This document shows positions 10,022-62,545 of a stretch of 64,000 nucleotides of DNA, piece by piece (position 1 is the first letter of the stretch; each line of letters opens with the position of its first letter). Both the position numbers and the translations under genes were made by a program. The notes beneath the pieces were generated by a model, which made no database searches, was not told the DNA's origin, and saw only the letters and a program-made list of their open reading frames with translations. The DNA is from Deltaproteobacteria bacterium (GTDB taxonomy: Bacteria; Myxococcota; JACPTQ01). Location of the stretch: the NCBI GenBank assembly GCA_016192705.1, contig JACPTQ010000014.1:15503-79502 (forward strand), given 5' to 3'.

Positions 10022-13000
10022 CTAGTTCTCGGTGCCGGGGATTCTCGCGTTGAGCGGCGGCGCTTGGTCGGGGATGTTGTCGACGCGTATCATGCCGCGG
10101 TTGTAGCAGGTGACATAGAGTGAGCGCGCGCGACCCGCGAGCGTCGATTTGTCGAACGTCGCTGCGGCGGCGCGGCAGCCAAAGTCGCGGTCGTCGGCAA
10201 GGCGGCTCCATGTGACGCCATCGAACGTCGCGAAGACGCCGGTGTTGCCAACGGCGAAGCGCGTGCGTGGCTCGTCGGCGACGAAGACCATGTCGGTCAA
10301 GAGCGCCGAGAGTCCGCCCACGCCGTAATCGCGCTCGACCCAGGCTTCTGTCGCGCGCGACTCGGGGTTTCCATACGGGGCGCCGACGAGCGTTGCGAGG
10401 TTTTCGAGCGAAGCGACGCGCGTCCAGGTGCGGCCGCCGTTTTGCGTGATTTTGATCCCGGCGGGGCACGCCCCAGAGCCCGGGTCGTCGATGTAGACCA
10501 TCGCGCTGTTGTACGGGTTTACGAAAAAGCTTGAGACCGCGCACGCTCCGTTGGTGCCAGGGCTCGCCGTGTTAACGACCTTCAAGACGCTCGTCCAGCT
10601 GCCCATGTTCGCGATTCGAAGGAGGTCGCCGCTGCGCGTCCAAGCGTAGTTGACCGGATTCGCGTGCCCGCCGGCTGGTTGGACGATCGCGGTGTCGGCT
10701 GGAAGTCCGCTCGCGACGACACCCCACCGGTTGGTGTAAGGCGTGCTCGGGCAGGCCGCGGTGTTTCGATCGGCGTCGATCACTTGCGCGCGGAAAAGCG
10801 TGACGCCGTCGGGCGCCGGACGGCTGCCATTCGGCTCATAGTAATCGAGCATCACGAGATCCGCGGCAAGCGGGCAGCCGGAGACCGTGCCGGTCGTTGT
10901 GGGAATTTCGGCCGGTAGCGTCTGGATGACGTGGCGATTTCCCCAGCCCCAGATGGGGGGCGCCGACGTTGCGCCATCGGGCGCGGCGACGAACGGCACG
11001 CTGTAGAATCGAACGCCACCGCCGATGTCGCGCGAACCGAAGGCCGGTGTACAGCCGGGTGTGTTCGAGCCGACGCACCACTGGTAAGGAGCGGTCGGGT
11101 AACGGCCGTTCGTGGCGAAGATGCCGAAGCTCGACGATCCGCGGGGGTGATCGACTTGGACGACGCGATCCGCGGCGGCTGGGTGGGCGTCGGCCATGAA
11201 GCGGCCACAGTCGCCGCACGTTCCCGTTTCGCCGGTCCAGTTTGTTGCGGGGTCGGGGTTGGAGGAGCTGTCCCAACTTGTGGGCGGTGAGTCTGGGTTT
11301 ACGTAGAAGTAGTCGTTGTCCTGCGTGCCGGAGTAGTGCGCGGGGCGAGACGCGCCTGGGCGTGAAAGCGTCGCACCGCCCGTCATCCAAAGTGTCCCGA
11401 GACCGCGGCCGGATGCGGGTTTTGTCGCGAAAGGCGAGAGGTTGCAACCGGGTGTGAGGAGGCCGAAGAGCGTTTTCGGGCACGTGCGGATCGTTCCTGC
11501 GGGCGAGGCGTAAAGGCCGCCGTCGTTCGCGACGAACGCGCGGCCCGCGGTGTGGATGAGGCTCGCGTTTGCGCAGGCGGCGCGGCGCGATGCGGCGCAC
11601 CCGGGCTGGATGGCGAACGTTGCGGCGAAATCGTCCGATACGTAGACGTCGTGCGGATCGACGTGGATGAAGAGTGGCGCATCGCCTTCGGCCGGGTTTT
11701 GGCCGTCAAGGCGCGCCCAGCGGCCGAGTTGCGGCGCGGCCGGTGAGTCGATGGGGGGGAGGCCGTCATGAACGTGAACGGTCGTCGCGTCGGCGAAAAA
11801 GAGGTAAAAGCCGGTGCCGCTCGGCTTTCGCGTCGCGAGGATTGCGGGTCGTCCGGAAGGCGTCGCTTGTCCGAAGTAACTCGGCGGCGACGCGAGAGGC
11901 GATGACGCCCATCGAACGACGCGCGCGGCTGGGTCGAAGGACCCCATCCAAAGCCCGGCCTCGCCGCAGCCGAGATTCGCGGACGCGGCGGCTGGGCACT
12001 CGGCTGGCGCACCGCGGGGCGGGTTAACGGGGGCACCGCAGCGCGTCCCTTCAATTTGGCATGCGTCGAAGTACCGTGGGCCGCGCGAGGTGTTGGCGAG
12101 TGTGACGACTATCGTTCCGGGGGTTGTGGGGGGGGTGGCGAGGGCATGGGGGGCACCGGTCCAGCTGCAGCCGTACGCGCGATTGGGACCGAGGCCGAAG
12201 TTCGTCGTGAACGTCGCGCCGCTGTCGATCGAAACGGCGAATCCCGCGGCCCCGCACGCGTAAACGCGATTTCCCGTCGTCGTGCGTTCGGAAACGGCGA
12301 TGTAGTTGAGCGCGGGACGACCGCCGTTGGGGGCGCGCCCGACTTCCGTCCAGTTGCGTCCCCCATTGCGGCTGACGGCGAGCCCGCACGATCCCGCGGC
12401 GAACACGGTGTTCGGGTCGTCGGGTGCAAAGCGAACTTGGGTGACGACGGCGCCCTTACCGCAACTCGGCATGTACGTCGGCATCCACGTACGTCCCGCG
12501 TCGTTCGAAGTCCAGACGCCGCCTGCGTACGACTTGAGGAAGCCGCTGTTCTCAAAGTCGCCGGTCGCGAGGAGAACGGTCGAGCCGTCGGCTGGCGTTG
12601 GTGAAACGGCGATTTCGTTGATCTGCGAAACCCCAGGCGAGAAAAAGGGCGATGTGAGGGGGTGGCGGCACGCGACCTTCGTGTTCGCTTGGCACCAGTT
12701 CGCGCCGTAGTCGTCGGAGCGCCAGAGTCCTGTTCGAAGGCCGGTTGCGTAGAGGCGACGGCCGCTTGGCGAGCCGCTCATCGCGCGGACCGGGCCCGCG
12801 AGTGACTGTCGAGCGGGGTCGCGGGTGCGCGACGCGGGGCCGACGTCGGTGATGGTGATGCGTGGGCGCGGTGACGTCGGGGACGGCTCATGCTCGCGCG
12901 GAAGGGCGACGTGGGTTTGCGGCGTCGGGCGGAGTGCGTCGGTGCTCGCGCGCGTCTCGGGTGAGCCGTCACCACAGGCGACGACGGCGAGAAGAAGCGA

Positions 13001-41116: not shown

Positions 41117-41930
41117 TCAGTTCTTACACGGCTGGTCGCCGTGCGCGCCTGAAAGCGTTTGTTTTGTGTAAAGCTCGAAGTTGAAGCGGTCCGAATGTTC
41201 GGGCGTGTGGCACGGAGCGCATTTTTCCTTGGTGACTTTACACGCGATGCGCCCCGCGGCTTTTGGATTTGCCGCGTGAAGCGAGCCAGTCCCGTGGCAC
41301 GCTTCGCACTGAACATTGGTGAGCCCGGTGGTCGCGCCAATTTTCGATCCGAGCGGGGCCATATACGCCGTCACGTGGCAGCTCACGCAGTCGCCGTCGT
41401 GCTCCTTGCCGAGGGTGGTCAGGGTTTTCCACGCGCGCGCGTGCGCGGTTGTGAGCCACTGCGCGTGTTCGTCCGGGTGGCAACCGGCGCAAGTCGCGCC
41501 GTTCACGACGACCGCTTGTCCGCGTTTGGGCTCGGGCAGCTTCACGGAGGCAAAGTGCGCGACATTGATTTCGCCGACGCGGCGGTTGTACGCGGCGAGC
41601 TTTGCCGCCATGGCGTCGTTTCGAGGCCCGGTGCGCTCAAGCGGGACGAGCTCGTACGTGAAACCGTGGGCGTCGGGCGGCGGTTTTCGCGCCAACGCGG
41701 CGACGCGCCGTTCGGCCTCAAGCGCGCGCAAGCGTCCCTCGAATTCGACGAGCTTCTCTTGAAGCGCAACGGCATCGGCGGTTCGACCTTCGCGACGCGC
41801 GGCCCGCATCTTGTCGCGCGCGTTGACGACTTTTTTTTCGACGAGCGCGATGTCTGCGGGATCGGGCGGCGATAAATCGACGAAGCGTGTCGCGCCCGGT
41901 GTCTCGGTCAGCGTCAGGAGGCCGACGTGT
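41117..41930 (-). CDS. tetraheme c-type cytochrome segment (probably C-terminal part of a frameshifted larger gene)
   Basis: Four CxxCH heme-binding motifs (CAGCH, CVSCH, CEACH, CAPCH). No signal peptide in this frame; upstream track extension is Arg-rich junk. Confidence 0.5.
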
Positions 41931-47565: not shown

Positions 47566-48486
47566 TCAGGAGCGCGGGTGCAGGCGATCGATGACGGATT
47601 TGAGGCGCTTGCGATCAACATGGGTGTAAATCTGCGTGGTCGCGATGCTTTGATGGCCGAGGAGAAGTTGCACGGAACGGAGGTCGGCGCCGCGTTCGAG
47701 GAGGTGCGTCGCGAAGGAGTGGCGGAGCGTGTGCGGAGAAAACGTCGCGACGATTCCGGCGTCGCGGGCGCGTCGGCGAAGCAATTTCCAAAAACCCTGG
47801 CGCGTCATCGCGCGTCCGCGCGGCGAGAGGAAAAGCGCGCTCTCGGTCGCGCGTCGGACGAATCGTGGTCGCGAGAGCTTAAGGTAGGCGCGAAGGGCGT
47901 CGAGCGCGATTTCGCCGACGGGCACGACGCGTTCCTTGCCGCCTTTCCCGCGGCAGCGCACGATGCCGCGCGTTTCGTCGACGCTGTTCATGGTGAGCGA
48001 CACGAGTTCGCTGACGCGGAGCCCGGTCGCGTAAAGGAGTTCGAGCATCGCGCGGTCGCGCAACGTCGCGCGGGTTTCCTTGGGCGGCGGCGCGAGGAGG
48101 CGTTCGACGTCATCGAGCGAAAGTGCATGCGGCAAGCGGCGCCCGGCTGGTGGAACCGCGACTTCGCGCGCGGGATCGTCGGTTGCGCCGAGCTCGTCGT
48201 GCGCATAGCGGTGAAGTGTGCGAACAGCCGAGAGGGCCCGCGCAATTGAGCGAAGGCCAAGCCCCCGGTGAGTGAGCGATGACACGAACCGGCGAACGTC
48301 GTCTTCAGTGGCCGCGGTCAGCGATGTTCGTCCCGACTTGTCGAGCGTCGCGCGATACGCGTCGAGGTCTGCGGCGTACGCGGTTACGGTGCGCGGCGAC
48401 AAGTTGCGTTCGAGTCGAAGGTGATCGAGGAATGCCGCGAGCTCGTCGATAAGCGCCACGTGAGCGACGATAGCCGGCCCAGGTGT
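47566..48486 (-). CDS. tyrosine recombinase, XerC/XerD family
   Basis: C-terminal catalytic region ..HTLRHSFATHLLERGADLRSVQLLLGHQSIATTQIYTHV.. with R..HxxR..Y residues; N-terminal core-binding domain begins near ..ALIDELAAFLDHLRLERNLSPRT. Upstream 75 track codons probably not translated. Confidence 0.8.
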   Translation of the reverse strand, partial: TPGPAIVAHVALIDELAAFLDHLRLERNLSPRTVTAYAADLDAYRATLDKSGRTSLTAATEDDVRRFVSSLTHRGLGLRSIARALSAVRTLHRYAHDELGATDDPAREVAVPPAGRRLPHALSLDDVERLLAPPPKETRATLRDRAMLELLYATGLRVSELVSLTMNSVDETRGIVRCRGKGGKERVVPVGEIALDALRAYLKLSRPRFVRRATESALFLSPRGRAMTRQGFWKLLRRRARDAGIVATFSPHTLRHSFATHLLERGADLRSVQLLLGHQSIATTQIYTHVDRKRLKSVIDRLHPRS

Positions 48487-48520
48487 TGATCGCAAAGAAG
48501 TTGCGCTGCCATGCGCGATG

Positions 48521-49378
48521 TTACATCTCGACGGTTTCGCGGATTGGACGTCCGGGAGCTTCGTTGCGAGTTTCAGGTCGTCCGCAAGGTTCAGCGTGAC
48601 CTGGTTGAAGGGGATGGTCAGTCCGTTCTCGTTGCAGATCCGGACGAGCGCCGTATGGACGTCCCGCAGGAGGTCCTCGCGTATCCCGGCGCACCGTCCG
48701 TCCGCGTCCAAAACGATTTCCAGGTCCAGGGAACTGCTGGCGGCCTTCGGCGCTCTCGAACACGACGAGCCATCGCCAAATCGGAGCGGGGTAAGGGTAG
48801 GCGCCGATGCGGAGGCGCGATTCAGTGGGCAACCCGTCGAGTGCGAGTTTCAGCGCGCGTCGCCGAAAGTGGGCTTTCGCGAGCCAGTACGCGACGACAA
48901 CGGCCCACGTGATCCCCGAAAGGACCACGCGTTCAGCTGGGAATTCGAGCGACAACACGATCCCCGCGAGGAAGAGGAACGGGAGAAAGGGGTCCATGAA
49001 GGCGACCAAATCCCACGAGACAAAGCGGCGAGACCAGCCGCGAAAGACTTGGGCGCCGTGGGAGTTTGTAATGTCGAGCAGGCTGTGGAGGAGGACGCCG
49101 GCGAGACCCGTGAGAAAGAGCGGCAAAAAACGGCTGTCGGGATAAATCGCCGTGAGCGTGGCCGCGACGGCAGCGGCCGTGAGCGGCATCCCGAAAACGG
49201 AGTGCGTAAAGGTTCGGTGGGCGCGGAGCGCGGCGGCGCCGCCTTTGGCTTTTGAGAAGAGATCGAGGTCAGAGAACGTCGCTGACAGGATGATGTTGAT
49301 TGTGGCGTGGGGGTCGGCCGTGTCGAGACCGAGGAACGACAGGCTTGCGCCGGCGAGAGCGTGGCTGACGGTATCCAC
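48521..49378 (-). CDS. membrane-bound metal-dependent hydrolase (DUF457 / YdjM-like)
   Basis: MDTVSHALAGASLSF..TFTHSVFGMPL..LHSLLDITNSHGAQVF pattern of His/Asp ligands in a small polytopic membrane protein; the last ~70 codons are low-complexity run-on. Confidence 0.55.
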   Translation of the reverse strand: MDTVSHALAGASLSFLGLDTADPHATINIILSATFSDLDLFSKAKGGAAALRAHRTFTHSVFGMPLTAAAVAATLTAIYPDSRFLPLFLTGLAGVLLHSLLDITNSHGAQVFRGWSRRFVSWDLVAFMDPFLPFLFLAGIVLSLEFPAERVVLSGITWAVVVAYWLAKAHFRRRALKLALDGLPTESRLRIGAYPYPAPIWRWLVVFESAEGRQQFPGPGNRFGRGRTVRRDTRGPPAGRPYGARPDLQRERTDHPLQPGHAEPCGRPETRNEAPGRPIRETVEM

Positions 49379-49565: not shown

Positions 49566-49907
49566 ATGAAAAAGGTGTCGGGGGATAGCGTGATTAATCG
49601 GTTTTTTGACCAGGTTCGGCAGAGCTGGGCCGATGCGGGTGAGTTCGCCCAATCGGTTAAGGAGCGTATTTGGAGTGGGCCGGAGGCGAGGCGCGTTCGT
49701 GCCCTCGCGATTCCGGCCGCGCCGAGCGCGACGCTTGTCGACAAGGCCAAGGCGTCGGTTGCGCTGACGCTCATCGGTGTTTTTGCTGGAATCGCGATTG
49801 CGTCGCTGTCGACCCTCGTGACGTCGCTGATTTTTATTTACTTGTTGGTTACGCGTGTCCTCGGGATTCGCATCGACCTCGACCCTGAGGCGATGCCCAA
49901 GTTCTGA
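49566..49907 (+). CDS. small hypothetical membrane protein (single C-terminal TM helix)
   Basis: 113-codon ORF with hydrophobic C-terminal segment ALTLIGVFAGIAIASLSTLVTSLIFIYLLV; no obvious SD. Confidence 0.35.
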   Translation: MKKVSGDSVINRFFDQVRQSWADAGEFAQSVKERIWSGPEARRVRALAIPAAPSATLVDKAKASVALTLIGVFAGIAIASLSTLVTSLIFIYLLVTRVLGIRIDLDPEAMPKF

Positions 49908-49920
49908 GACGGAGGCTAGG

Positions 49921-52900
49921 ATGAAAAAAGTTTTTGCCGCGGTGGGTTTCGTTGTCTGTGCGGTCTTCTTGGGTGCGTGCGAAGACGCGGCGCAAGTGGG
50001 TGGCCCCGCTGTGCGGCCATGCACGCAGGACCCCGATTGCCCGTCGGGGCAGGTGTGTGGTGCAGCGCGGCGATGCGAGCCGGTGGCGCGCGTGGTTGAC
50101 GCGGGGCCGGGCGCGGATGCGGATGCAGGGGCGGTTGCGGATACGGATGCCGGGGCGGTTGCGGATACGGATGCGGGTGCGGAGGCGGATGCGGGGGTGG
50201 TTGTGGACGCGGGTCCCGTCGGCGGCGCGTTCGGCACGTCGTGCACGCTCGACAGCGATTGCGAATCAGGGCTCTGCGTTGGGGAGCAACCGGAACCGGG
50301 CGTGTGTACGCAGTTTTGCGGCGATTGTCCGCTTGGGTGGACGTGTCGCGGGATTACGACACGCGGCGGCTCGCAGACCGCGTTTGTCTGCACGCCAATG
50401 GCACAAACGGTTTGTCGCGTCTGTTCGACCGATGGTGACTGCGGCTCGGGGACGCGTTGCCGCGACGTGCTTGGGGAGAAACGATGTTTGCAAGCGTGTG
50501 ATGCGGTGAGCTGCACGGGCGCGGCGTATACGTGCGTTGAATCGGCGTCACCGACGAATCCAGCGGCGACCGAGAAAAACTGCGCGCCGACGTCGGGGTC
50601 GTGCGTGCCGTGCACCGATAAAGATGGCGATGGGTATGGTGTCGGAACGGCGTGTCTGGGAGTCGATTGCAACGACAACGACCCGAACATCCATCCCGCG
50701 GCGGTCGAGGTCTGCGACGGAATCGACAACAACTGCAACAGCCAGACGGACGAGGGTTTCGACTTGCAGAGCGACCCGGCGAACTGCGGGGTGTGCGGTA
50801 CAACGTGCGACACGGGGCGTGGGCAGGCGTGTTGCGCGGGGGCGTGCGTCGCGCTTGGTTCGGCGATCGCGAATTGCGGCGCGTGCGGGGTTTCGTGTGT
50901 GGGCGTCGGCGCGGCGTGTTGCGGGGGCGGTTGCACGACGACGGTGTCGAACGCGGCGAACTGCGGGGCGTGTGGGCGCGCGTGTGACGTGGTTGCGGGC
51001 GAGATTTGCTGCGGGAGCGGGTGCGTCAATCGGCTGAACGACGACCAGAATTGCGGCGCGTGCGGAAACGTTTGCGGCGCGAACGAGAAGTGTTGTGGCG
51101 GAACGTGCACCGACGTTAAGGCGAACGCGGCGGCGTGCGGCGCGTGCGGTGTGACGTGCGATACGACCGCGGGCGAAGCGTGTTGTGACGGCGCGTGTAA
51201 GAACACGAAGACGGAGCACGATTTCTGCGGTTCGTGCACGACGGCGTGTGGCACGAGCGATTCGTGTTGCGCGGGGAGTTGTGCCGATCCGCAATCGGAT
51301 GAGGCCAACTGCGGTGGCTGTGGTGTGAAGTGCCCAGCGGGTGGGCTTTGTTGCGGTGCGGGGTGCGTCGATCCGTCGACGGACGTTGCGAATTGCGGGG
51401 CGTGCGGTGCGGCGTGTGCGTCGGGGAGTTTGTGCTGCCCGACGGGTGGCGCGGCGCCCGCAGGAACGTGTCGCGATCCGCAGAACGATGTCAACAACTG
51501 CGGTGGGTGCGGAAACGTCTGCGCGGCCGGCCAGACGTGCTGCGGGGGCGGTTGCAAGGACCTCCTCGCTGATGCGAACAACTGTGGGACGTGCGGAAAT
51601 GCGTGCGCGACGGGGCAAACCTGTTGTGGTGGCGCGTGCGTCGATCCGAACCTCGATGCCCCGAACGCGTCGGCGCCTTTTGATGACGCGAATTGCGACG
51701 GCGTCGATGGTGTCGCGGCGAAGTCAATTTTCGTCGATGCGCTGACGTCGTGCTCGCTGAACCTTGGCACGAAGGCGTGCCCAATGAAGACGATTCAAAT
51801 GGCGATCAACGTTGCCGCCGCATCGCTTGTGACCGCGACGCCCAAGGCGAGTGTCCTCGTTTCAGCGGCGACGTACAACGAGTCGCTTACGCTCAAGCGC
51901 GGTGTGAGCGTTTACGGTGGTTACAGCGCGACGCAGAATTGGGCGCGGAGCGCGAGCAACGTCGTCACAATCAACGGTGGGACGACCGCCGTTCGGACCG
52001 ATTCGGCGCAGACATTTAATGTTGCGACGGTGTTCGATCGCTTCACGATTCTTTCGGCCTCGAACACATCGCCGGGTGGCGCGTCGATCGGCGTGCTCGT
52101 GAAGAACGCGACGAGTGCGCTGGTTTTGCGAAACTTGACGGTGCAGGCCGGGAACGGTGGAAACGGGACCGACCAATCGTCGACGCGCGCGGCGACGGGC
52201 GATTCGGGCGGTGACGGGAACACGGGCGGCAACGGCGCGGAGGATTGCTCGCAGTCGGGTGCGGGACGCGGCGGCACGGGTGGATGGAGTTCGTGCGGAC
52301 GGTCGGGCGGGCGTGGTGGCTATGCGGCGTGCGGCTGGGCGATTGGCGAGACGGGGCCGAGCGGGACGGGGTCGTACCCGGGTTATGGCGGAAGTGGTGG
52401 TGCGGGCGGGAATCCGACGGGGTGGCCGAGCTGCAGCTCGACGACGTACGGCGCGGGCGGGAACGCGGGATCGAATGGGCGCGACGGGAGCGATGGGGTT
52501 GCGGGGAGCGGAACCGGCGTCGTGAATTCGAGCGGCGATTGGGTGGCGTCGAATGGAACGCCGGCGACATCGGGCACGTCGGGCGGCGGCGGTGGTGGCG
52601 GCGGTGGCGGTGGCGGTGGGGCGTCGACGCATTCGTGCGACTTCTGGTGTTCGCTCGGAATCTGCGATGACAACTTGGGCGGCGGTGGCGGTGGTGGTGG
52701 AGCGGGAGGCTGTTCCGGGAACGCGGGCGCGAGTGGCGGCGGCGGTGGCGGCTCGTTCGCGATTTATTTGTGGAACGCGTCGCCCACGGTGCAGTCGGTC
52801 GTCGGGCGCGCCGGGACCGGTGGCAAGGGCGGGCGCGGGCAGTCGGGCGGTTGGGGCGGATGGGGTGGCATCGGGCGGAGCGGGGGCTCGAAGGCGCCAG

Positions 52901-53142
52901 ACGACGACGGCGGCGGCGGTGGAAAGGGCGGAAACGGCGGTAGCGGTGGCAATGGCGGTTATGGCGCGGGCGGTGGCGGTGGGCCGTCGTACGGGCTCTT
53001 CCGCGCGAACGCGGCGTCGGCGCCGACGTTGTCCGGGAACAGTTGGGTCAAGGGGATCGCTGGAGCCGGAGGCTATGGGCCGGCGTCGAACAGTGGCGCG
53101 ACCGGCGTCGCGTCGAGCTGTAACGCCGGAACCTGCAATTAG
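49921..53142 (+). CDS. giant cysteine-rich repeat lipoprotein (MopE-like metal-binding motif, at least 10 tandem NCGxCG..CC.G.C repeats, Gly-rich C-terminus)
   Basis: SD GGAGG 5 nt upstream; lipoprotein signal [20 protein letters not shown]; motif [41 protein letters not shown]; about ten ~30-aa repeats; C-terminal region of poly-Gly runs. Confidence 0.65.
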
Positions 53143-53599
53143 GGCGGTCGTTCAGCGCGTCGCGCGGGCTTCGGTTTGCGTCGTCGAGGGCGGAAACGAT
53201 TGCGTGGTCGCCTCGATTGGGAACGGGTTTCTCGTGTTTCTTGGGGTTGCGCCCGACGACACACCCGACGATGTAAGCTGGCTCGCGGAAAAGATTGCGA
53301 CGTTGCGGGTCTTCGAAGATTCCGCCGGCAAGATGAATCGGTCGCTCGTCGACGTTGGCGGAAGCGCGCTGGTCGTTTCGCAGTTCACGCTTTTCGCCGA
53401 TTGTTCGCGTGGGCGTCGCCCGTTTTTTGGGGCGGCCGCAGCGCCGGTAGTCGCTGAACCGATGGTCGACGCGTTCGCCAAGGCCATCGGCGCATTTGTT
53501 CCCGGTGTGTCGACGGGGCGCTTCGGTGCGCAGATGGCGGTCGAGCTCGTCAACGATGGCCCGGTCACGATTTCGCTCGATTCGCGGCTCCGGATTTGA
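53138..53599 (+). CDS. dtd: D-aminoacyl-tRNA deacylase
   Basis: ..[59 protein letters not shown].. matches Dtd throughout. The conserved N-terminus aligns to codons starting at ATT 53138-53140, overlapping the upstream stop TAG. Confidence 0.8.
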
Positions 53600-53649
53600 C
53601 TTTGAGCAACGTGCTCGCCATCCTCTAAGAGGAGGGTGGAGACTCGGGA

Positions 53650-54831
53650 GTGATCCGAATTCGACCAGTTTTTTTTCTTTTTTTGGGGTGCACGTCGGTC
53701 ACTGCGTCGATGGGGCCGATGGGTCCGAGCGGAGACGCGGGATCCGTTGGAGCGCAGGGGGTTCCCGGTCCTTCGGGTGATGCTGGGCCGATGGGATTGA
53801 CAGGAATTGCCGGCCCGCCCGGTGACGCGGGACCGGCAGGGCCGCCGGGTCCTTCGGGAGACGCTGGGCCGCAAGGGCCTCCAGGCCCGTCTGGTGACGC
53901 CGGAGCGGACGGGAATTCTCGAATCTACGGGAGTGGTGTCGCGGGGGCGGTTGTTATTTCTGGAGATACGCTTTGGAGCGCATTTCCCCCGCCGAGCACG
54001 CAGTTCACGGATTTTACGGTGAATACTGGCGTTGAGCTTACCGTGACGAGCGGAACTGTGATTCGGTGTACGGGGACCTTCACGAACAACGGAACGATTT
54101 TTGTGTATTACGGCGTCTCCGGTGGCAATCGGCTACTGCAGGATAGCGACGCCGGCGCTCTTCCGCGCGTTCAATCGCCGCACCCCGGGTTCTCGTTGGC
54201 GCCAGCCGGATTTGGCCATTTCGGAAGCTCAGCCACACGTCAATACGGCGGGTCCGGTGGCAGTCCCATTTACCTGTTCGCCGCGCGAAACCTGACGCGG
54301 CCTGGTCCTTGGGGAGGTGGCGGCGGCGGGGGCGCCTATGCAGCGGGAGGTAATGGTGGCGGATCGCTTCTGGTTCTCGCGCGGACGGCCGTTGTAATTG
54401 GAGGATCGGGGATTATCAATGCGGATGGCGCGGGTCCGGTATGGGGCGGCGGCGGTGGCGGCGGTGGGATTGTGGTTCTTGCATCGGGCGGCTCCATCAC
54501 GAATTCGGGGGTGATCAGCGCGAAGGGCGGCGAAGGTGGATACAGCATTTCGCTTACCGCGGCAGGAGGCGGCGGCGGAGGAGGAATCGTTCACCTGATT
54601 GCGCCGAGTATTACACAGGGTACCGTCGTGGTTGCGGGTGGTGACGCCGGGAGCGGGGCGGAAGCTGTTACGGGCAATCCGCGTTACGCCGGTGGTGGCG
54701 GTGGAGCGTGCGGTGGTAGCGGCGGGACCGGAGGGACCGTATATGAAAGCGGTACCGAGTCAGTGGGCCAGTACGCGGGGACCAGCGGCTATTCCTTGAC
54801 CACATTGGAGGATCCGGCGTTTCATTTTTAG
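53650..54831 (+). CDS. collagen-like triple-helix repeat lipoprotein with Gly-rich beta-helix-like C-terminal domain
   Basis: GTG start; signal/lipobox-like [14 protein letters not shown]; about 22 uninterrupted G-X-Y triplets ([41 protein letters not shown]); then Gly-run-rich domain. Middle part is about 50-52% GC by hand count. Confidence 0.6.
53669..53684 (+). repeat. homopolymeric tract T8-C-T7 within signal-peptide codons of the collagen-like gene
   Basis: Read directly: TTTTTTTTCTTTTTTT encoding VFFLFL. Confidence 0.9.
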
Positions 54832-61307: not shown

Positions 61308-62545
61308 TTAGCAGCTCCTAAGAGTGCCCCGGCGGCGCGAAGCGAAACGCGGAAATCTGCGGACTGCATGGCTGTGCGAATATCCGCGACGCGCAGGAGT
61401 TCGCCCACAGCGCACAATCGGACAGCGGGCTCGACATCCGAAAGACCAGCAATGTGTCGGGCTGCATCGTAAAGCCCGCCGTACATTGTGCCTTCCCATT
61501 TCCGTATTTCCTCGCATTTTCTATTCAGATAGTCGAATCGCCCGCTGTACCGCATCGCCTCGCACCGATCCGCAGCCGCCGCCGAATCGGCCTTCGCTTC
61601 TAAATCAGCGCCGTAAGCAACTCGTGCGGCCGCACGACGCACCCACCACGACCTGTCCTTTTCAAGCGCCCGAACCTGTCGCTCCGCCGCGTCGCAATGC
61701 GGTGCCGTCAATGCGGGCGCTTTCAAGAACGCGCCAAGGGCTCGCGCCGCGCGCCATCGTACTTGCGCGAACTTGTGCTTCGCCGCCTTTTCGAGGAGCG
61801 CGAGCTTTTTCGCCGGTGCGATGTTGAACGCCGCGATGGCATCGACTGCGTTCGTCGAGACGTTGCCGTCGCCGCGGTAACGAAGGGCGCGCTCGAGGAT
61901 CGGAACGCGCACGCCATCTGAAACGTGCTCGAGCATGAGCGGCGCCCAGCGCACAGCCCACCCCTCGGTCTTTTCGACGCCCGGCCGTTTTGGCCCCACG
62001 GTTTTGTCGGAGAGCGCCCCGCGAATGATTCGCAGCGCTTCGCCGCGCACCGCCGGCGCCTCAGCCATCGCGCGCATGGCGGCCCAGTACCGCGCCTCTT
62101 TGTGCGATCCGCGCATGATCGCCTTCAATGCTTTTTCGTGAACGCACTTCTCTTTAAGCGCCGTCCAATCGGTTTTCGACGAACACTGAACACCCGTGTC
62201 CGGCGTCGCAGGGTGCATCTTGTGTGTGCGGTACTCGGCGAGCGACAAGTCGTCATCGTACGTCGCGATCGGCCGCAAATCCGCGCAGCCACCGGGCTTC
62301 CCGGCGCCGATCTCTTCGAGCTTATCGACGACGGCGAGCCTCACGTTGAACTTTTCGTCGGCTGCCGCAATCCTTAAGAGCGGCTCAACATCGGCGCATG
62401 GGCCTTTCGGCAGCGCGCGAACGGCGGTGAGGCGAACGCGCACGTCGGGCGAGCGCAACGCCTCCTCGAGCTTTTTTTTCGCTTCGGCGCGCGCGTCATC
62501 TTTTTGTCCGAGAGACGCGATGGCAACAAGAACAGCGAACATCAT
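61304..62545 (-). CDS. HEAT/ARM-like repeat protein, secreted
   Basis: Signal peptide (MMFAVLVAIASLG), repeated ..VR..A..AL.. helices; ATGA overlap with upstream gene. Confidence 0.45.
   Translation of the reverse strand: MMFAVLVAIASLGQKDDARAEAKKKLEEALRSPDVRVRLTAVRALPKGPCADVEPLLRIAAADEKFNVRLAVVDKLEEIGAGKPGGCADLRPIATYDDDLSLAEYRTHKMHPATPDTGVQCSSKTDWTALKEKCVHEKALKAIMRGSHKEARYWAAMRAMAEAPAVRGEALRIIRGALSDKTVGPKRPGVEKTEGWAVRWAPLMLEHVSDGVRVPILERALRYRGDGNVSTNAVDAIAAFNIAPAKKLALLEKAAKHKFAQVRWRAARALGAFLKAPALTAPHCDAAERQVRALEKDRSWWVRRAAARVAYGADLEAKADSAAAADRCEAMRYSGRFDYLNRKCEEIRKWEGTMYGGLYDAARHIAGLSDVEPAVRLCAVGELLRVADIRTAMQSADFRVSLRAAGALLGAAK

What the first reader, a model, noticed from the sequence alone, without database searches (positions are those of the whole stretch)
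53650..54831. Collagen-like lipoprotein with a T8-C-T7 tract in its signal-peptide codons and a low-GC C-terminal domain
About 22 uninterrupted G-X-Y triplets follow a lipoprotein-like signal peptide. The signal region contains TTTTTTTTCTTTTTTT, extraordinary in a ~68% GC genome and a classic substrate for slipped-strand length variation, so expression could be phase-variable. The following ~250 bp are about 50-52% GC. The C-terminal Gly-run domain resembles the C-terminus of the adjacent giant Cys-rich lipoprotein.
Basis: partly seen in the sequence, partly recalled or inferred. Interest (0 to 1): 0.6.

Follow-up and report, generated by a model that had tools for sequence, protein, structure and literature searches.

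The report
Collagen-stalked beta-helix lipoprotein gene
This is a real gene for a probably lipid-anchored bacterial envelope protein with a collagen-like stalk and an undescribed glycine-rich beta-helix head. Its striking run of Ts spells the greasy core of the signal peptide and was identical in every assembly I could find, so nothing here shows on/off switching.

Summary
ORF 53650-54831 (+, GTG start, 393 aa) is a genuine gene. It has a 13-residue signal peptide ending in the lipobox-like F-L-G-C. Then come 23 uninterrupted G-X-Y triplets (Pfam Collagen, 49 bits) and a ~300-aa Gly-run domain modelled with pLDDT ~97 as a right-handed beta-helix.

The head belongs to a widespread family with no Pfam, NCBIfam or PDB sequence match. 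The exhaustive search found 843 50%-identity clusters. Members occur in Planctomycetota, Bdellovibrionota, Myxococcota, Acidobacteriota and Xanthomonadales, with the same architecture of signal or lipobox, variable collagen, and a head ending in DPTxLF.

T8-C-T7 (53669-53684) is real and rare: no comparable tract in 704 kb of similar-GC DNA. It encodes V-F-F-L-F-L, and a ±1 slip truncates the product to 43-49 aa. The tract was identical in four independent assemblies from four sequencing runs and in the window. No homologue carries such a tract. Both runs fall below the ≥10 cut-off used for poly-A/T phase variation in Campylobacter.

Several first-reader numbers are wrong. Window GC is 62.6%, not 68%. 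The "low-GC" stretch is 57%, not 50-52%, and reflects amino-acid composition. The whole gene, however, has atypically low GC3 (0.59 vs 0.72). The giant Cys-rich protein is not adjacent (dtd lies between) and is not homologous.

The parts
53630..53641 (+). Shine-Dalgarno-like AGGAGG / GGAG, 8-14 nt upstream of the GTG start
   Evidence: Read directly from the sequence. An in-frame TAA at 53626-28 precludes an earlier start.
53650..54831 (+). Complete ORF, 393 aa, GTG start and TAG stop: collagen-like lipoprotein with a Gly-run beta-helix head
   Evidence: Homologues reach E 1e-59 to 1e-60. Logan contigs carry the same gene call.
53650..53691 (+). Signal peptide [13 protein letters not shown] plus lipobox Cys14 (F-L-G-C)
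   Evidence: P0075 has the same FLGC lipobox, and P0022/P0084 have equally short lipoprotein signals with Cys15.
53669..53684 (+). T8-C-T7 tract within codons 7-12 (V-F-F-L-F-L), the hydrophobic core of the signal peptide
   Evidence: A ±1 T in either run gives a truncated product of 43-49 aa. The tract is identical in L001, L087, L088 and L089.
53713..53919 (+). Collagen-like region: 23 uninterrupted G-X-Y triplets (residues 22-90), with a degenerate 36-nt (4-triplet) periodicity
   Evidence: Pfam PF01391 at 49.4 bits. Triplet count and composition: Pro in 11 of 23 X positions. TRF finds period 36 at 69% matches.
53926..54828 (+). C-terminal head (residues 93-393): predicted right-handed beta-helix, member of an unannotated family ending in DPTxLF (here DPAFHF)
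54310..54705 (+). Four Gly runs (G7, G8, G7, G5) spaced about 41-42 residues apart. The first three are each followed by three short beta-strands, so Gly-rich and beta-strand coils alternate.
   Evidence: sequence. DNA repeat family D2 has spacing 126/123 nt. DSSP pattern of the model.

Best explanation
The ORF encodes an exported, most likely N-terminally lipidated envelope protein built as anchor, stalk and head.

1. Translation starts at GTG 53650.
2. The 13-residue signal peptide (n-region with R3 and R5, h-region PVFFLFL) ends in F-L-G-C. Cys14 is inferred to be acylated and to become the new N-terminus.
3. Residues 22-90 are 23 G-X-Y triplets. They are inferred to form a trimeric collagen triple helix about 20 nm long.
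4. Residues 93-393 fold into a right-handed beta-helix in which ordinary three-strand coils alternate with coils made of Gly runs. The collagen rod holds this head away from the membrane, where it most likely acts as a binding (adhesin-like) tip.

The T8-C-T7 tract is the codon spelling of the Phe/Leu-rich hydrophobic core. The whole gene has unusually AT-rich third positions (GC3 0.59 vs 0.72), which fits horizontal acquisition. The tract is a potential frameshift hotspot, but nothing shows that it is used as a switch.

Shown here: the ORF, the start, the triplets, family membership, the fold prediction, and the invariance of the tract across assemblies.
Inferred: lipidation, trimerisation, surface display and binding function.
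For: - Start and signal: SD plus GTG, an upstream in-frame stop, and no SD before ATG 53710. Homologues show lipobox or signal peptide followed directly by collagen.
- Collagen: PF01391 at 49.4 bits and 23 uninterrupted triplets.
- Stalk as a variable spacer: G-X-Y run length ranges 0-33 with median 10 across the family.
- Extracytoplasmic life: Cys140 is 98% conserved and Cys354 72%.
- Stand-alone gene: no conserved neighbour across 80 loci.
- Tract not a demonstrated switch: identical T8CT7 in four independent assemblies from runs SRR12113390, -426, -428 and -385, plus the window. No T/A run of 8 or more lies in the 5'/signal region of any homologous gene. Both runs are below the poly-A/T >=10 cut-off. 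A8 tracts sit mid-gene in two unrelated genes of the same window.
- Whole-gene low GC3: z -4.2 overall and -3.3 for non-Gly codons, the lowest of 33 genes.
Against: - The lipobox is non-canonical (F at -3, L at -2), and Cys14 lies one residue short of the 15-35 range that, from memory, the PROSITE lipoprotein rule requires. No dedicated predictor could be run.
- The collagen part cannot be modelled as a monomer (pLDDT <50-70 for residues 1-60), and no trimer prediction was possible.
- Some family members have no collagen at all (for example P0075), so the head need not be trimeric.
- The binding function rests on analogy only. No ligand, partner gene or experimental datum exists for any member.
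- The all-T-rich codon choice remains improbable for this peptide (6e-4 to 6e-3) and is not positively explained. The 5' mRNA-structure test was neutral.
Confidence: 0.7

Rival explanations
1. Contingency locus. Slipped-strand mispairing in T8 or T7 switches the surface protein ON and OFF by frameshifting within the signal-peptide codons.
For: - The tract lies inside the ORF, and a ±1 T yields truncated products of 43-49 aa.
- The product is an envelope protein, the typical class for such switches (established knowledge).
- The tract is very rare in comparable DNA: 0 in 704 kb.
- The codon choice is improbable.
- From memory, not checked here: runs of 7-8 nt can switch in bacteria that lack mismatch repair, such as the glpK 7C tract in Mycobacterium tuberculosis.
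Against: - All sequences that cover the tract (four independent assemblies from four runs, plus the window) carry the same ON-frame T8CT7 and are 100% identical overall.
- The M21-start product expected from an OFF allele is not on record.
- None of the 80 homologous genes has a T/A run of 8 or more in its 5'/signal region.
- Both runs are below the poly-A/T >=10 cut-off (PMC6321876), and the C interrupts the tract.
- A8 tracts occur in ordinary genes nearby.
Confidence: 0.1
2. The whole gene was acquired horizontally. This explains its atypical composition and the T-rich codons. It is compatible with the best explanation rather than exclusive of it.
For: - GC3 is 0.594 against 0.724±0.031 for 32 other genes in the window, the lowest of all. 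Non-Gly codons give z = -3.3.
- Gly codon use is uniform, whereas the genome is GGC-biased.
- The family has a patchy distribution over at least seven phyla, several genomes hold multiple copies, and there is no conserved context.
Against: - There are no mobility genes, tRNA or flanking repeats next to the gene. Its neighbours are housekeeping genes (dtd, aldehyde dehydrogenase, M20 peptidase).
- No close relative of the genome exists to show presence or absence: the best neighbour-gene identity is about 51-53%.
- Low GC3 could also reflect weak expression.
Confidence: 0.4
3. The real start is ATG 53710. The protein would then be a cytoplasmic collagen-like protein and the T tract would be 5' leader.
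For: ATG is the commoner start codon, and the 13-residue signal peptide is unusually short.
Against: - There is no SD before 53710, while GGAGG/GGAG precedes the GTG.
- Family members carry signal peptides or lipoboxes before the collagen part, including two with Cys15 and one with the same FLGC.
- Gene calls on independent contigs use 53650.
- The 373-aa product is absent from the protein collection.
Confidence: 0.03
4. The gene is a phage tail-fibre gene or prophage remnant.
For: - PHROG tail-fibre families match the collagen part, and phrog_13336 (function unknown) matches residues 93-161.
- Two BFVD models give Foldseek E about 1e-6.
Against: - tblastn of the head against 50,697 phage genomes finds nothing.
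- The IMG/VR scan returns only collagen-part matches.
- No phage genes flank the ORF.
- A lipoprotein signal peptide is not a virion-fibre feature.
Confidence: 0.03

Closest known systems
BclA, the exosporium collagen-like glycoprotein of Bacillus anthracis (own knowledge)
   Same: Same order of parts: N-terminal attachment to the cell structure, a collagen-like stalk of variable length, and a C-terminal globular head displayed at the tip.
   Different: The BclA head is a C1q/TNF-like jelly-roll trimer, and it is anchored by a targeting peptide rather than a lipid. Here the head is a predicted beta-helix, with no sequence or fold match to C1q-like domains.
Scl1/Scl2 (Streptococcus pyogenes) and Lcl (Legionella) collagen-like adhesins
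   Same: Bacterial surface proteins with Pro-rich G-X-Y repeats lacking hydroxyproline. NCBIfam models for these hit the collagen part.
   Different: Scores are 31-41 bits against cut-offs of 325-500, so this is not a member. Scl has the opposite polarity: an N-terminal V domain and a C-terminal LPXTG anchor.
Burkholderia cepacia complex collagen-like lipoproteins (Bcc-CLPs; PMC10224339)
   Same: Predicted lipoproteins carrying collagen-like repeats and proposed to be adhesins.
   Different: They are defined by the Col_mid_reg domain PF15984, which is not found here. They have no Gly-run beta-helix head.
Right-handed beta-helix adhesin domains: TPS domains of EtpA, HMW1, HxuA and FHA; tapirins
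   Different: Only about 40% of the head aligns. Foldseek finds nothing with E<0.9, and there is no sequence similarity. The TPS motifs NPNL and NPNGI are absent from the sequence. The Gly-run coils have no counterpart.
Bdellovibrio MAT (mosaic adhesive trimer) fibres (PMC10769870) and phage tail fibres
   Same: The logic is the same: a trimeric stalk anchored at the N-terminus displays a variable C-terminal binding tip. Family members are frequent in Bdellovibrionota and Myxococcota.
   Different: MAT fibres are about 1000 aa with intertwined trimeric beta-helices, S74 chaperones or other tips, and no collagen. No homology was detected.
Homopolymer-tract (SSR) phase-variable surface genes of Campylobacter, Neisseria and Haemophilus
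   Same: An in-ORF homopolymer near the 5' end of a surface-protein gene, where a ±1 change abolishes the product.
   Different: The tracts are shorter than the accepted poly-A/T cut-off and interrupted. No length variation is seen across four assemblies and the window. The tract is not conserved in homologues.

Membership tests
Collagen triple-helix repeat protein (Pfam PF01391) | Uninterrupted (G-X-Y)n scoring above the Pfam gathering threshold | tested here: met
   49.4 bits against a cut-off of 27.2. There are 23 uninterrupted triplets, residues 22-90, with Pro in 11 of 23 X positions.
Collagen triple-helix repeat protein (Pfam PF01391) | Actual formation of a trimeric triple helix | not testable with these tools
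   Only a monomer could be predicted, and residues 1-60 have low confidence. This needs CD or melting data, or a multimer prediction.
Bacterial lipoprotein (SPase II substrate) | Positively charged n-region, hydrophobic h-region, and lipobox [LVI][ASTVI][GAS]C | tested here: inconclusive
   R3 and R5 are present. The h-region PVFFLFL has 7 residues. The lipobox F-L-G-C is non-canonical at -3 and -2, and Cys is at position 14. P0075 has the same FLGC, and P0022/P0084 have Cys15. No LipoP or SignalP was available.
Uncharacterised family: signal peptide, collagen, Gly-run beta-helix head ending DPTxLF | Full-length match of the ~300-aa head, including the RCxGxFTNxGxI motif, the Gly runs and the C-terminal DPxxxF | tested here: met
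   phmmer E 5e-59 to the best representative, with query residues 1-304 aligned. R139, C140, G142, F144, T145 and N146 fall in columns at least 90% conserved. The C-terminus is DPAFHF against the consensus DPTxLF.
Scl1/Scl2/Lcl collagen-like adhesins (NCBIfam NF038330, NF038329, NF046116) | Score above the curated equivalog cut-off | tested here: not met
   31.7-41.3 bits against cut-offs of 325-500. Only the collagen part matches.
SSR phase-variable (contingency) gene | Repeat tract at or above the length known to switch (poly-A/T >=10 in PhasomeIt) | tested here: not met
   T8 and T7 are separated by a C. The cut-off comes from PMC6321876.
SSR phase-variable (contingency) gene | Tract length differs between isolates, samples or reads | tested here: not met
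   The four Logan assemblies from four runs that cover the tract are identical to the window. Read-level minority variants could not be examined.
SSR phase-variable (contingency) gene | A length change alters the reading frame or expression of the gene | tested here: met
   In-silico ±1 T in either run gives products of 43-49 aa.
Two-partner-secretion (TPS) domain | TPS sequence signature (Pfam haemagglutination activity domain; NPNL and NPNGI motifs) at the N-terminus of a TpsA protein, with a TpsB partner | tested here: not met
   No Pfam hit. The motifs are absent from the sequence. The domain is C-terminal, and no conserved neighbour exists. Only generic fold similarity was found.
Relative of the neighbouring giant Cys-rich (Stig1 / MXAN_6577-like) protein | Detectable homology between the two Gly-rich C-terminal regions | tested here: not met
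   BLASTP E>7. hhalign probability 7.5% over 32 columns. The family HMM gives no hit at E<=10.

The most novel reading that the evidence does not exclude
The head may be a previously undescribed kind of beta-solenoid. In it, every second coil would be built from a poly-glycine run, possibly in polyglycine-II-like conformation, stacked on ordinary three-strand coils. It would then define a new extracytoplasmic binding or trimerisation domain. That domain is displayed on collagen, Cys-box or other stalks by predatory and environmental bacteria (Bdellovibrionota, Myxococcota, Planctomycetota and others). Separately, low-frequency slippage in T8-C-T7, invisible in consensus assemblies, is not excluded (about 0.1).
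Probability: 0.3. Interest if true: 0.5.

Novelty: new variant of a known kind. Interest (0 to 1): 0.3.

Why it matters
Bacterial collagen-like proteins are studied as adhesins and as recombinant collagen scaffolds, and each needs a folding or trimerisation head. This gene belongs to a sizeable environmental family (843 clusters at 50% identity) whose head has no Pfam, NCBIfam or PDB sequence match. The head is nonetheless predicted with very high confidence, so it is a ready target for a domain definition and a structure. The eye-catching T tract is best read as codon spelling of a Phe/Leu signal-peptide core in a compositionally atypical gene, not as a demonstrated phase-variation switch.

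Tried and rejected
- Homology of the head to the giant Cys-rich neighbour: rejected. BLASTP, hhalign and the family HMM were all negative.
- Low-GC stretch as a mosaic or foreign segment: rejected. GC3 is flat along the gene; only GC1 and GC2 change.
- T tract as an intrinsic terminator for dtd or an attenuator: the scan found no stem directly before the tract. By eye, only a 4-bp stem lies 9 nt upstream.
- T-rich codons selected to keep the 5' mRNA unstructured: neutral result. Native ensemble energy is weaker than in 75% of 1152 synonymous variants, but SD/start accessibility is not better than in 78% of them.
- Programmed -1/+1 frameshifting on U UUU UUU: both alternative frames stop after 43-49 codons and encode nothing recognisable.
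- Prophage or tail-fibre origin: rejected.
- Conserved operon partner: none found in 80 loci.
- Strain variants: the metagenome contigs pattern scan across the tract gave 0 hits. Exact look-ups of the 393-aa and 373-aa products in the cluster tables found nothing.
- dtd look-ups with starts 53120, 53075 and 53093 failed. Start 53204 succeeded and yielded three extra assemblies.
- Rfam and tRNA scans of the window were empty.
- No close relative of the genome exists for a locus comparison: the best neighbour-gene identity is about 51-53%.

Full report
**What is there**

The window holds an ORF at 53650..54831 on the + strand, with a GTG start and 393 codons. An in-frame TAA at 53626-28 excludes a longer N-terminus. 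AGGAGG (53630-35) and GGAG (53638-41) lie 8-14 nt upstream of the GTG, whereas the ATG at 53710 has no such site.

The product begins [14 protein letters not shown]. Two arginines are followed by the seven-residue hydrophobic stretch PVFFLFL and then the lipobox-like F-L-G-C, with Cys at position 14.

The tract TTTTTTTTCTTTTTTT occupies 53669-53684. It is simply codons 7-12 (GTT TTT TTT CTT TTT TTG = V F F L F L).

Residues 22-90 are 23 uninterrupted G-X-Y triplets, with Pro in 11 of the 23 X positions. Pfam Collagen scores 49.4 bits against a gathering score of 27.2. At DNA level the collagen part has only a degenerate 36-nt periodicity with 69% matches.

- The window is 62.6% GC, not about 68%.
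- The stretch after the collagen part (53916-54170) is 56.9% GC, not 50-52%.
- GC3 is flat along the ORF (0.58-0.60) while GC1 and GC2 fall from about 0.8 to 0.55. The dip therefore reflects amino-acid composition, not a foreign segment.
- The gene as a whole is unusual. Its GC3 is 0.594 against 0.724 ± 0.031 for 32 other genes of the window (z = -4.2). Non-Gly codons alone give z = -3.3. It is the lowest of all 33 genes.
- Its Gly codons are used almost uniformly, while the genome prefers GGC.
- The giant Cys-rich protein (49855/49921-53142; seven Stig1-like repeats, MXAN_6577-like) is not adjacent, because dtd lies between the two genes.
- Its Gly-rich C-terminus is not detectably related to this head: BLASTP E>7, hhalign probability 7.5% over 32 columns, and no hit with the family HMM at E<=10.

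**Is the T tract more than chance?**

Yes, as a sequence feature.

- The order-0 expectation for a 16-mer with at least 15 T is 2e-5 per window.
- In 704 kb of unrelated loci with at least 58% GC, no 16-mer had at least 15 A or T. A/T runs of 8 or more occurred 0.64 times per 64 kb, against 3 in this window.
- Given the peptide VFFLFL, this all-T-rich codon choice has probability 6e-4 with the window's codon usage and 6e-3 with the gene's own usage.
- However, T8/A8 runs also sit mid-gene in a cytochrome c554-like ORF (41831) and a HEAT-repeat ORF (62472). An 8-mer alone does not mark a special gene in this genome.

**What the protein is**

A search with the C-terminal 305 aa found 395 relatives. 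The best is about 50% identical, and all are "hypothetical". The exhaustive phmmer search found 843, 608 and 256 cluster representatives at E<=1e-3, 1e-10 and 1e-30. The match nearly always runs to the C-terminus of proteins of 350-460 aa.

A scan of one genome per species found 161 relatives. They occur in:
- Planctomycetota and Phycisphaerae;
- Bdellovibrionota and Myxococcota;
- Binatia;
- Acidobacteriota (Paludibaculum, Bryobacteraceae);
- Xanthomonadales-type genera (Tahibacter, Dokdonella, Rudaea, Steroidobacter);
- Emticicia and Paenibacillus.

Several genomes hold more than one copy.

The family architecture is a signal peptide, then a stalk, then the head, which ends in DPTxLF (here DPAFHF).
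- About half the members have a lipobox, for example P0075 ...GFLGC and P0001 ...YVACGTQ. P0022 and P0084 have Cys15 followed at once by G-X-Y.
- About 40% have a small Cys-containing module after the signal peptide.
- The G-X-Y stalk has 0-33 triplets, median 10. The window protein is in the top 3 of 87.

These N-termini support the GTG start and the lipoprotein reading. Independent gene calls on Logan contigs use the same start.

No Pfam family other than Collagen matches any of 87 members. NCBIfam hits only the collagen part, far below cut-offs. A profile search of PDB sequences finds only collagens.

**The head**

AlphaFold2 with the 87-sequence alignment gives pLDDT of about 97 for residues 95-393. 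The signal peptide and most of the collagen part (residues 1-60) are low-confidence, as expected for a monomer.

DSSP shows a run of short strands in residues 101-175. After that come three units of about 41-42 residues. In each unit a Gly run (G7, G8, G7) is followed by three short strands, for example 274-279, 282-285 and 288-290, and then by about 20 non-strand Gly-rich residues. The spacing matches DNA repeat family D2, at 126 and 123 nt.

- Tapirin, bactofilin and ice-binding proteins follow.
- Foldseek on the PDB finds nothing with E<0.9.
- BFVD gives two unnamed viral models at E about 1e-6 and TM 0.37.

So the fold class is clear, but roughly 60% of the head, including the Gly-run coils, has no solved counterpart. 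Cys140 is 98% conserved and Cys354 72%, which is compatible with an extracytoplasmic disulfide.

**Context**

The neighbours are housekeeping genes: dtd upstream, then aldehyde dehydrogenase and an M20 peptidase downstream. No tRNA, Rfam family or mobility gene abuts the ORF. Across 80 loci no neighbour gene is conserved; the largest neighbour cluster covers 8 loci. The gene therefore works on its own.

The head is not a phage module. tblastn against 50,697 phage genomes was negative, and IMG/VR yielded only collagen-part matches. PHROG tail-fibre families match the collagen part, and phrog_13336 (function unknown) matches residues 93-161.

**The phase-variation idea**

In silico, ±1 T in either run gives a product of 43-49 aa, so the tract could act as a switch. 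Five observations argue against it being used as one.

1. The organism is named "MAG: Deltaproteobacteria bacterium" by NCBI. Its nearest relatives are only about 51-53% identical in the neighbouring aldehyde dehydrogenase. It turns up in several Logan assemblies. Four independent contigs from four runs cover the tract: SRR12113390 (L001), SRR12113426 (L087), SRR12113428 (L088) and SRR12113385 (L089). All are 100% identical to the window, including T8-C-T7.
2. The 373-aa product expected from an OFF allele is not on record.
3. Across the 80 homologous genes (121 kb), runs of 8 or more are only G8 in the Gly-run region and a single A8 about 150 nt into the ORF of L012. There is no T-rich tract comparable to T8-C-T7.
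4. The cut-off used for poly-A/T phase variation in PhasomeIt is >=10 (PMC6321876). Here T8 and T7 are separated by a C.
5. A pattern scan of JGI metagenome contigs for length variants found nothing.

Consensus assemblies hide minority variants, and the four runs probably sample one population. I therefore put the switch at about 0.1 rather than zero.

A test of whether the T-rich codons lower 5' mRNA structure was neutral.

**Mechanism proposed**

- Sec export, followed by lipidation and cleavage at Cys14 (inferred).
- A collagen triple helix of 69 residues x 0.286 nm, about 20 nm (inferred from standard collagen geometry).
- A beta-helix head at the tip (predicted) acting as a binding module. 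This is by analogy with BclA, Scl and Lcl, with the collagen-like lipoproteins of Burkholderia (PMC10224339), with phage fibres, and with the trimeric MAT fibres of Bdellovibrio (PMC10769870).
- It is not a member of any of those families (see the membership table).
- The low GC3 of the whole gene and the patchy taxonomic spread fit horizontal acquisition, which would also make T-rich codons less surprising.

**Verdict**

The head belongs to an undescribed but widespread family. The quantitative composition claims and the link to the giant protein are wrong, and phase variation is unsupported. I rate it a new variant of a known kind (bacterial collagen-like surface proteins), of modest interest.

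Noticed in passing
window 53075-53599 (+): The dtd start is ambiguous. The conserved N-terminus (xRAVVQRV) begins at an ATT codon (53138-40) that overlaps the TAG stop of the giant ORF (53140-42). The nearest canonical in-frame starts are ATG 53075, which adds 21 aa and overlaps the giant ORF by 68 nt, and GTG 53204, which removes the conserved N-terminus. The Logan gene calls use GTG 53204. This may be a non-canonical ATT start with translational coupling.
   Followed up: partly
window 49855-53142 (+): Giant protein of about 1070-1095 aa with its own lipobox ([20 protein letters not shown], start probably ATG 49921). It has seven Stig1-like Cys-rich repeats (PF04885, E 8.5e-39; MXAN_6577-like) and a C-terminal region with Gly runs up to G13. 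This kind of protein is typical of Myxococcota. It is not homologous to the collagen ORF.
   Followed up: partly
window 41831-41838, 62472-62479, 12128-12135: Other 8-nt homopolymers lie inside coding regions. There is an A8 (minus strand) at about codon 114 of a cytochrome c554-like ORF, an A8 at about codon 101 of a HEAT-repeat ORF, and a G8 on the + strand (C8 in the coding sense) at about codon 401 of a 1102-aa BNR/sortilin-like ORF. A/T runs of 8 or more are about five times more frequent in this window than in 704 kb of other high-GC loci.
   Followed up: partly
loci L005, L010, L012, L013, L018, L021, L039, L042, L069, L074 (N-termini of the family genes): About 40% of family members replace the lipobox with a Sec signal plus a small conserved Cys module (roughly ICxKxxxGxxxxRxxxCxxGExK) ahead of a short collagen run. 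This is seen mainly in Bdellovibrionota and 'Deltaproteobacteria' MAGs. The module is undescribed as far as these libraries show.
   Followed up: no
loci L033, L036, L054, L056, L058 (Xanthomonadales-type members): Longer family members (580-750 aa) carry a different N-terminal region that begins ...APLA(P/A)QS(S/T)AFTYQGQLNAGG... instead of a short signal-plus-collagen stalk. The head therefore looks like a module mounted on different stalks.
   Followed up: no
window 47566-48711 (-): A XerC/XerD-type tyrosine recombinase (Phage_integrase plus Phage_int_SAM_1) lies about 1.1 kb upstream of the giant protein gene. No other mobile-element features were seen, so it is probably the housekeeping recombinase.
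   Followed up: no
L001 positions 1-21: The Logan contig SRR12113390_2626624 starts with a Nextera adapter remnant (…AGATGTGTATAAGAGACAG) joined to window position 53621. This is an assembly artefact in the public contig, not biology.
   Followed up: yes
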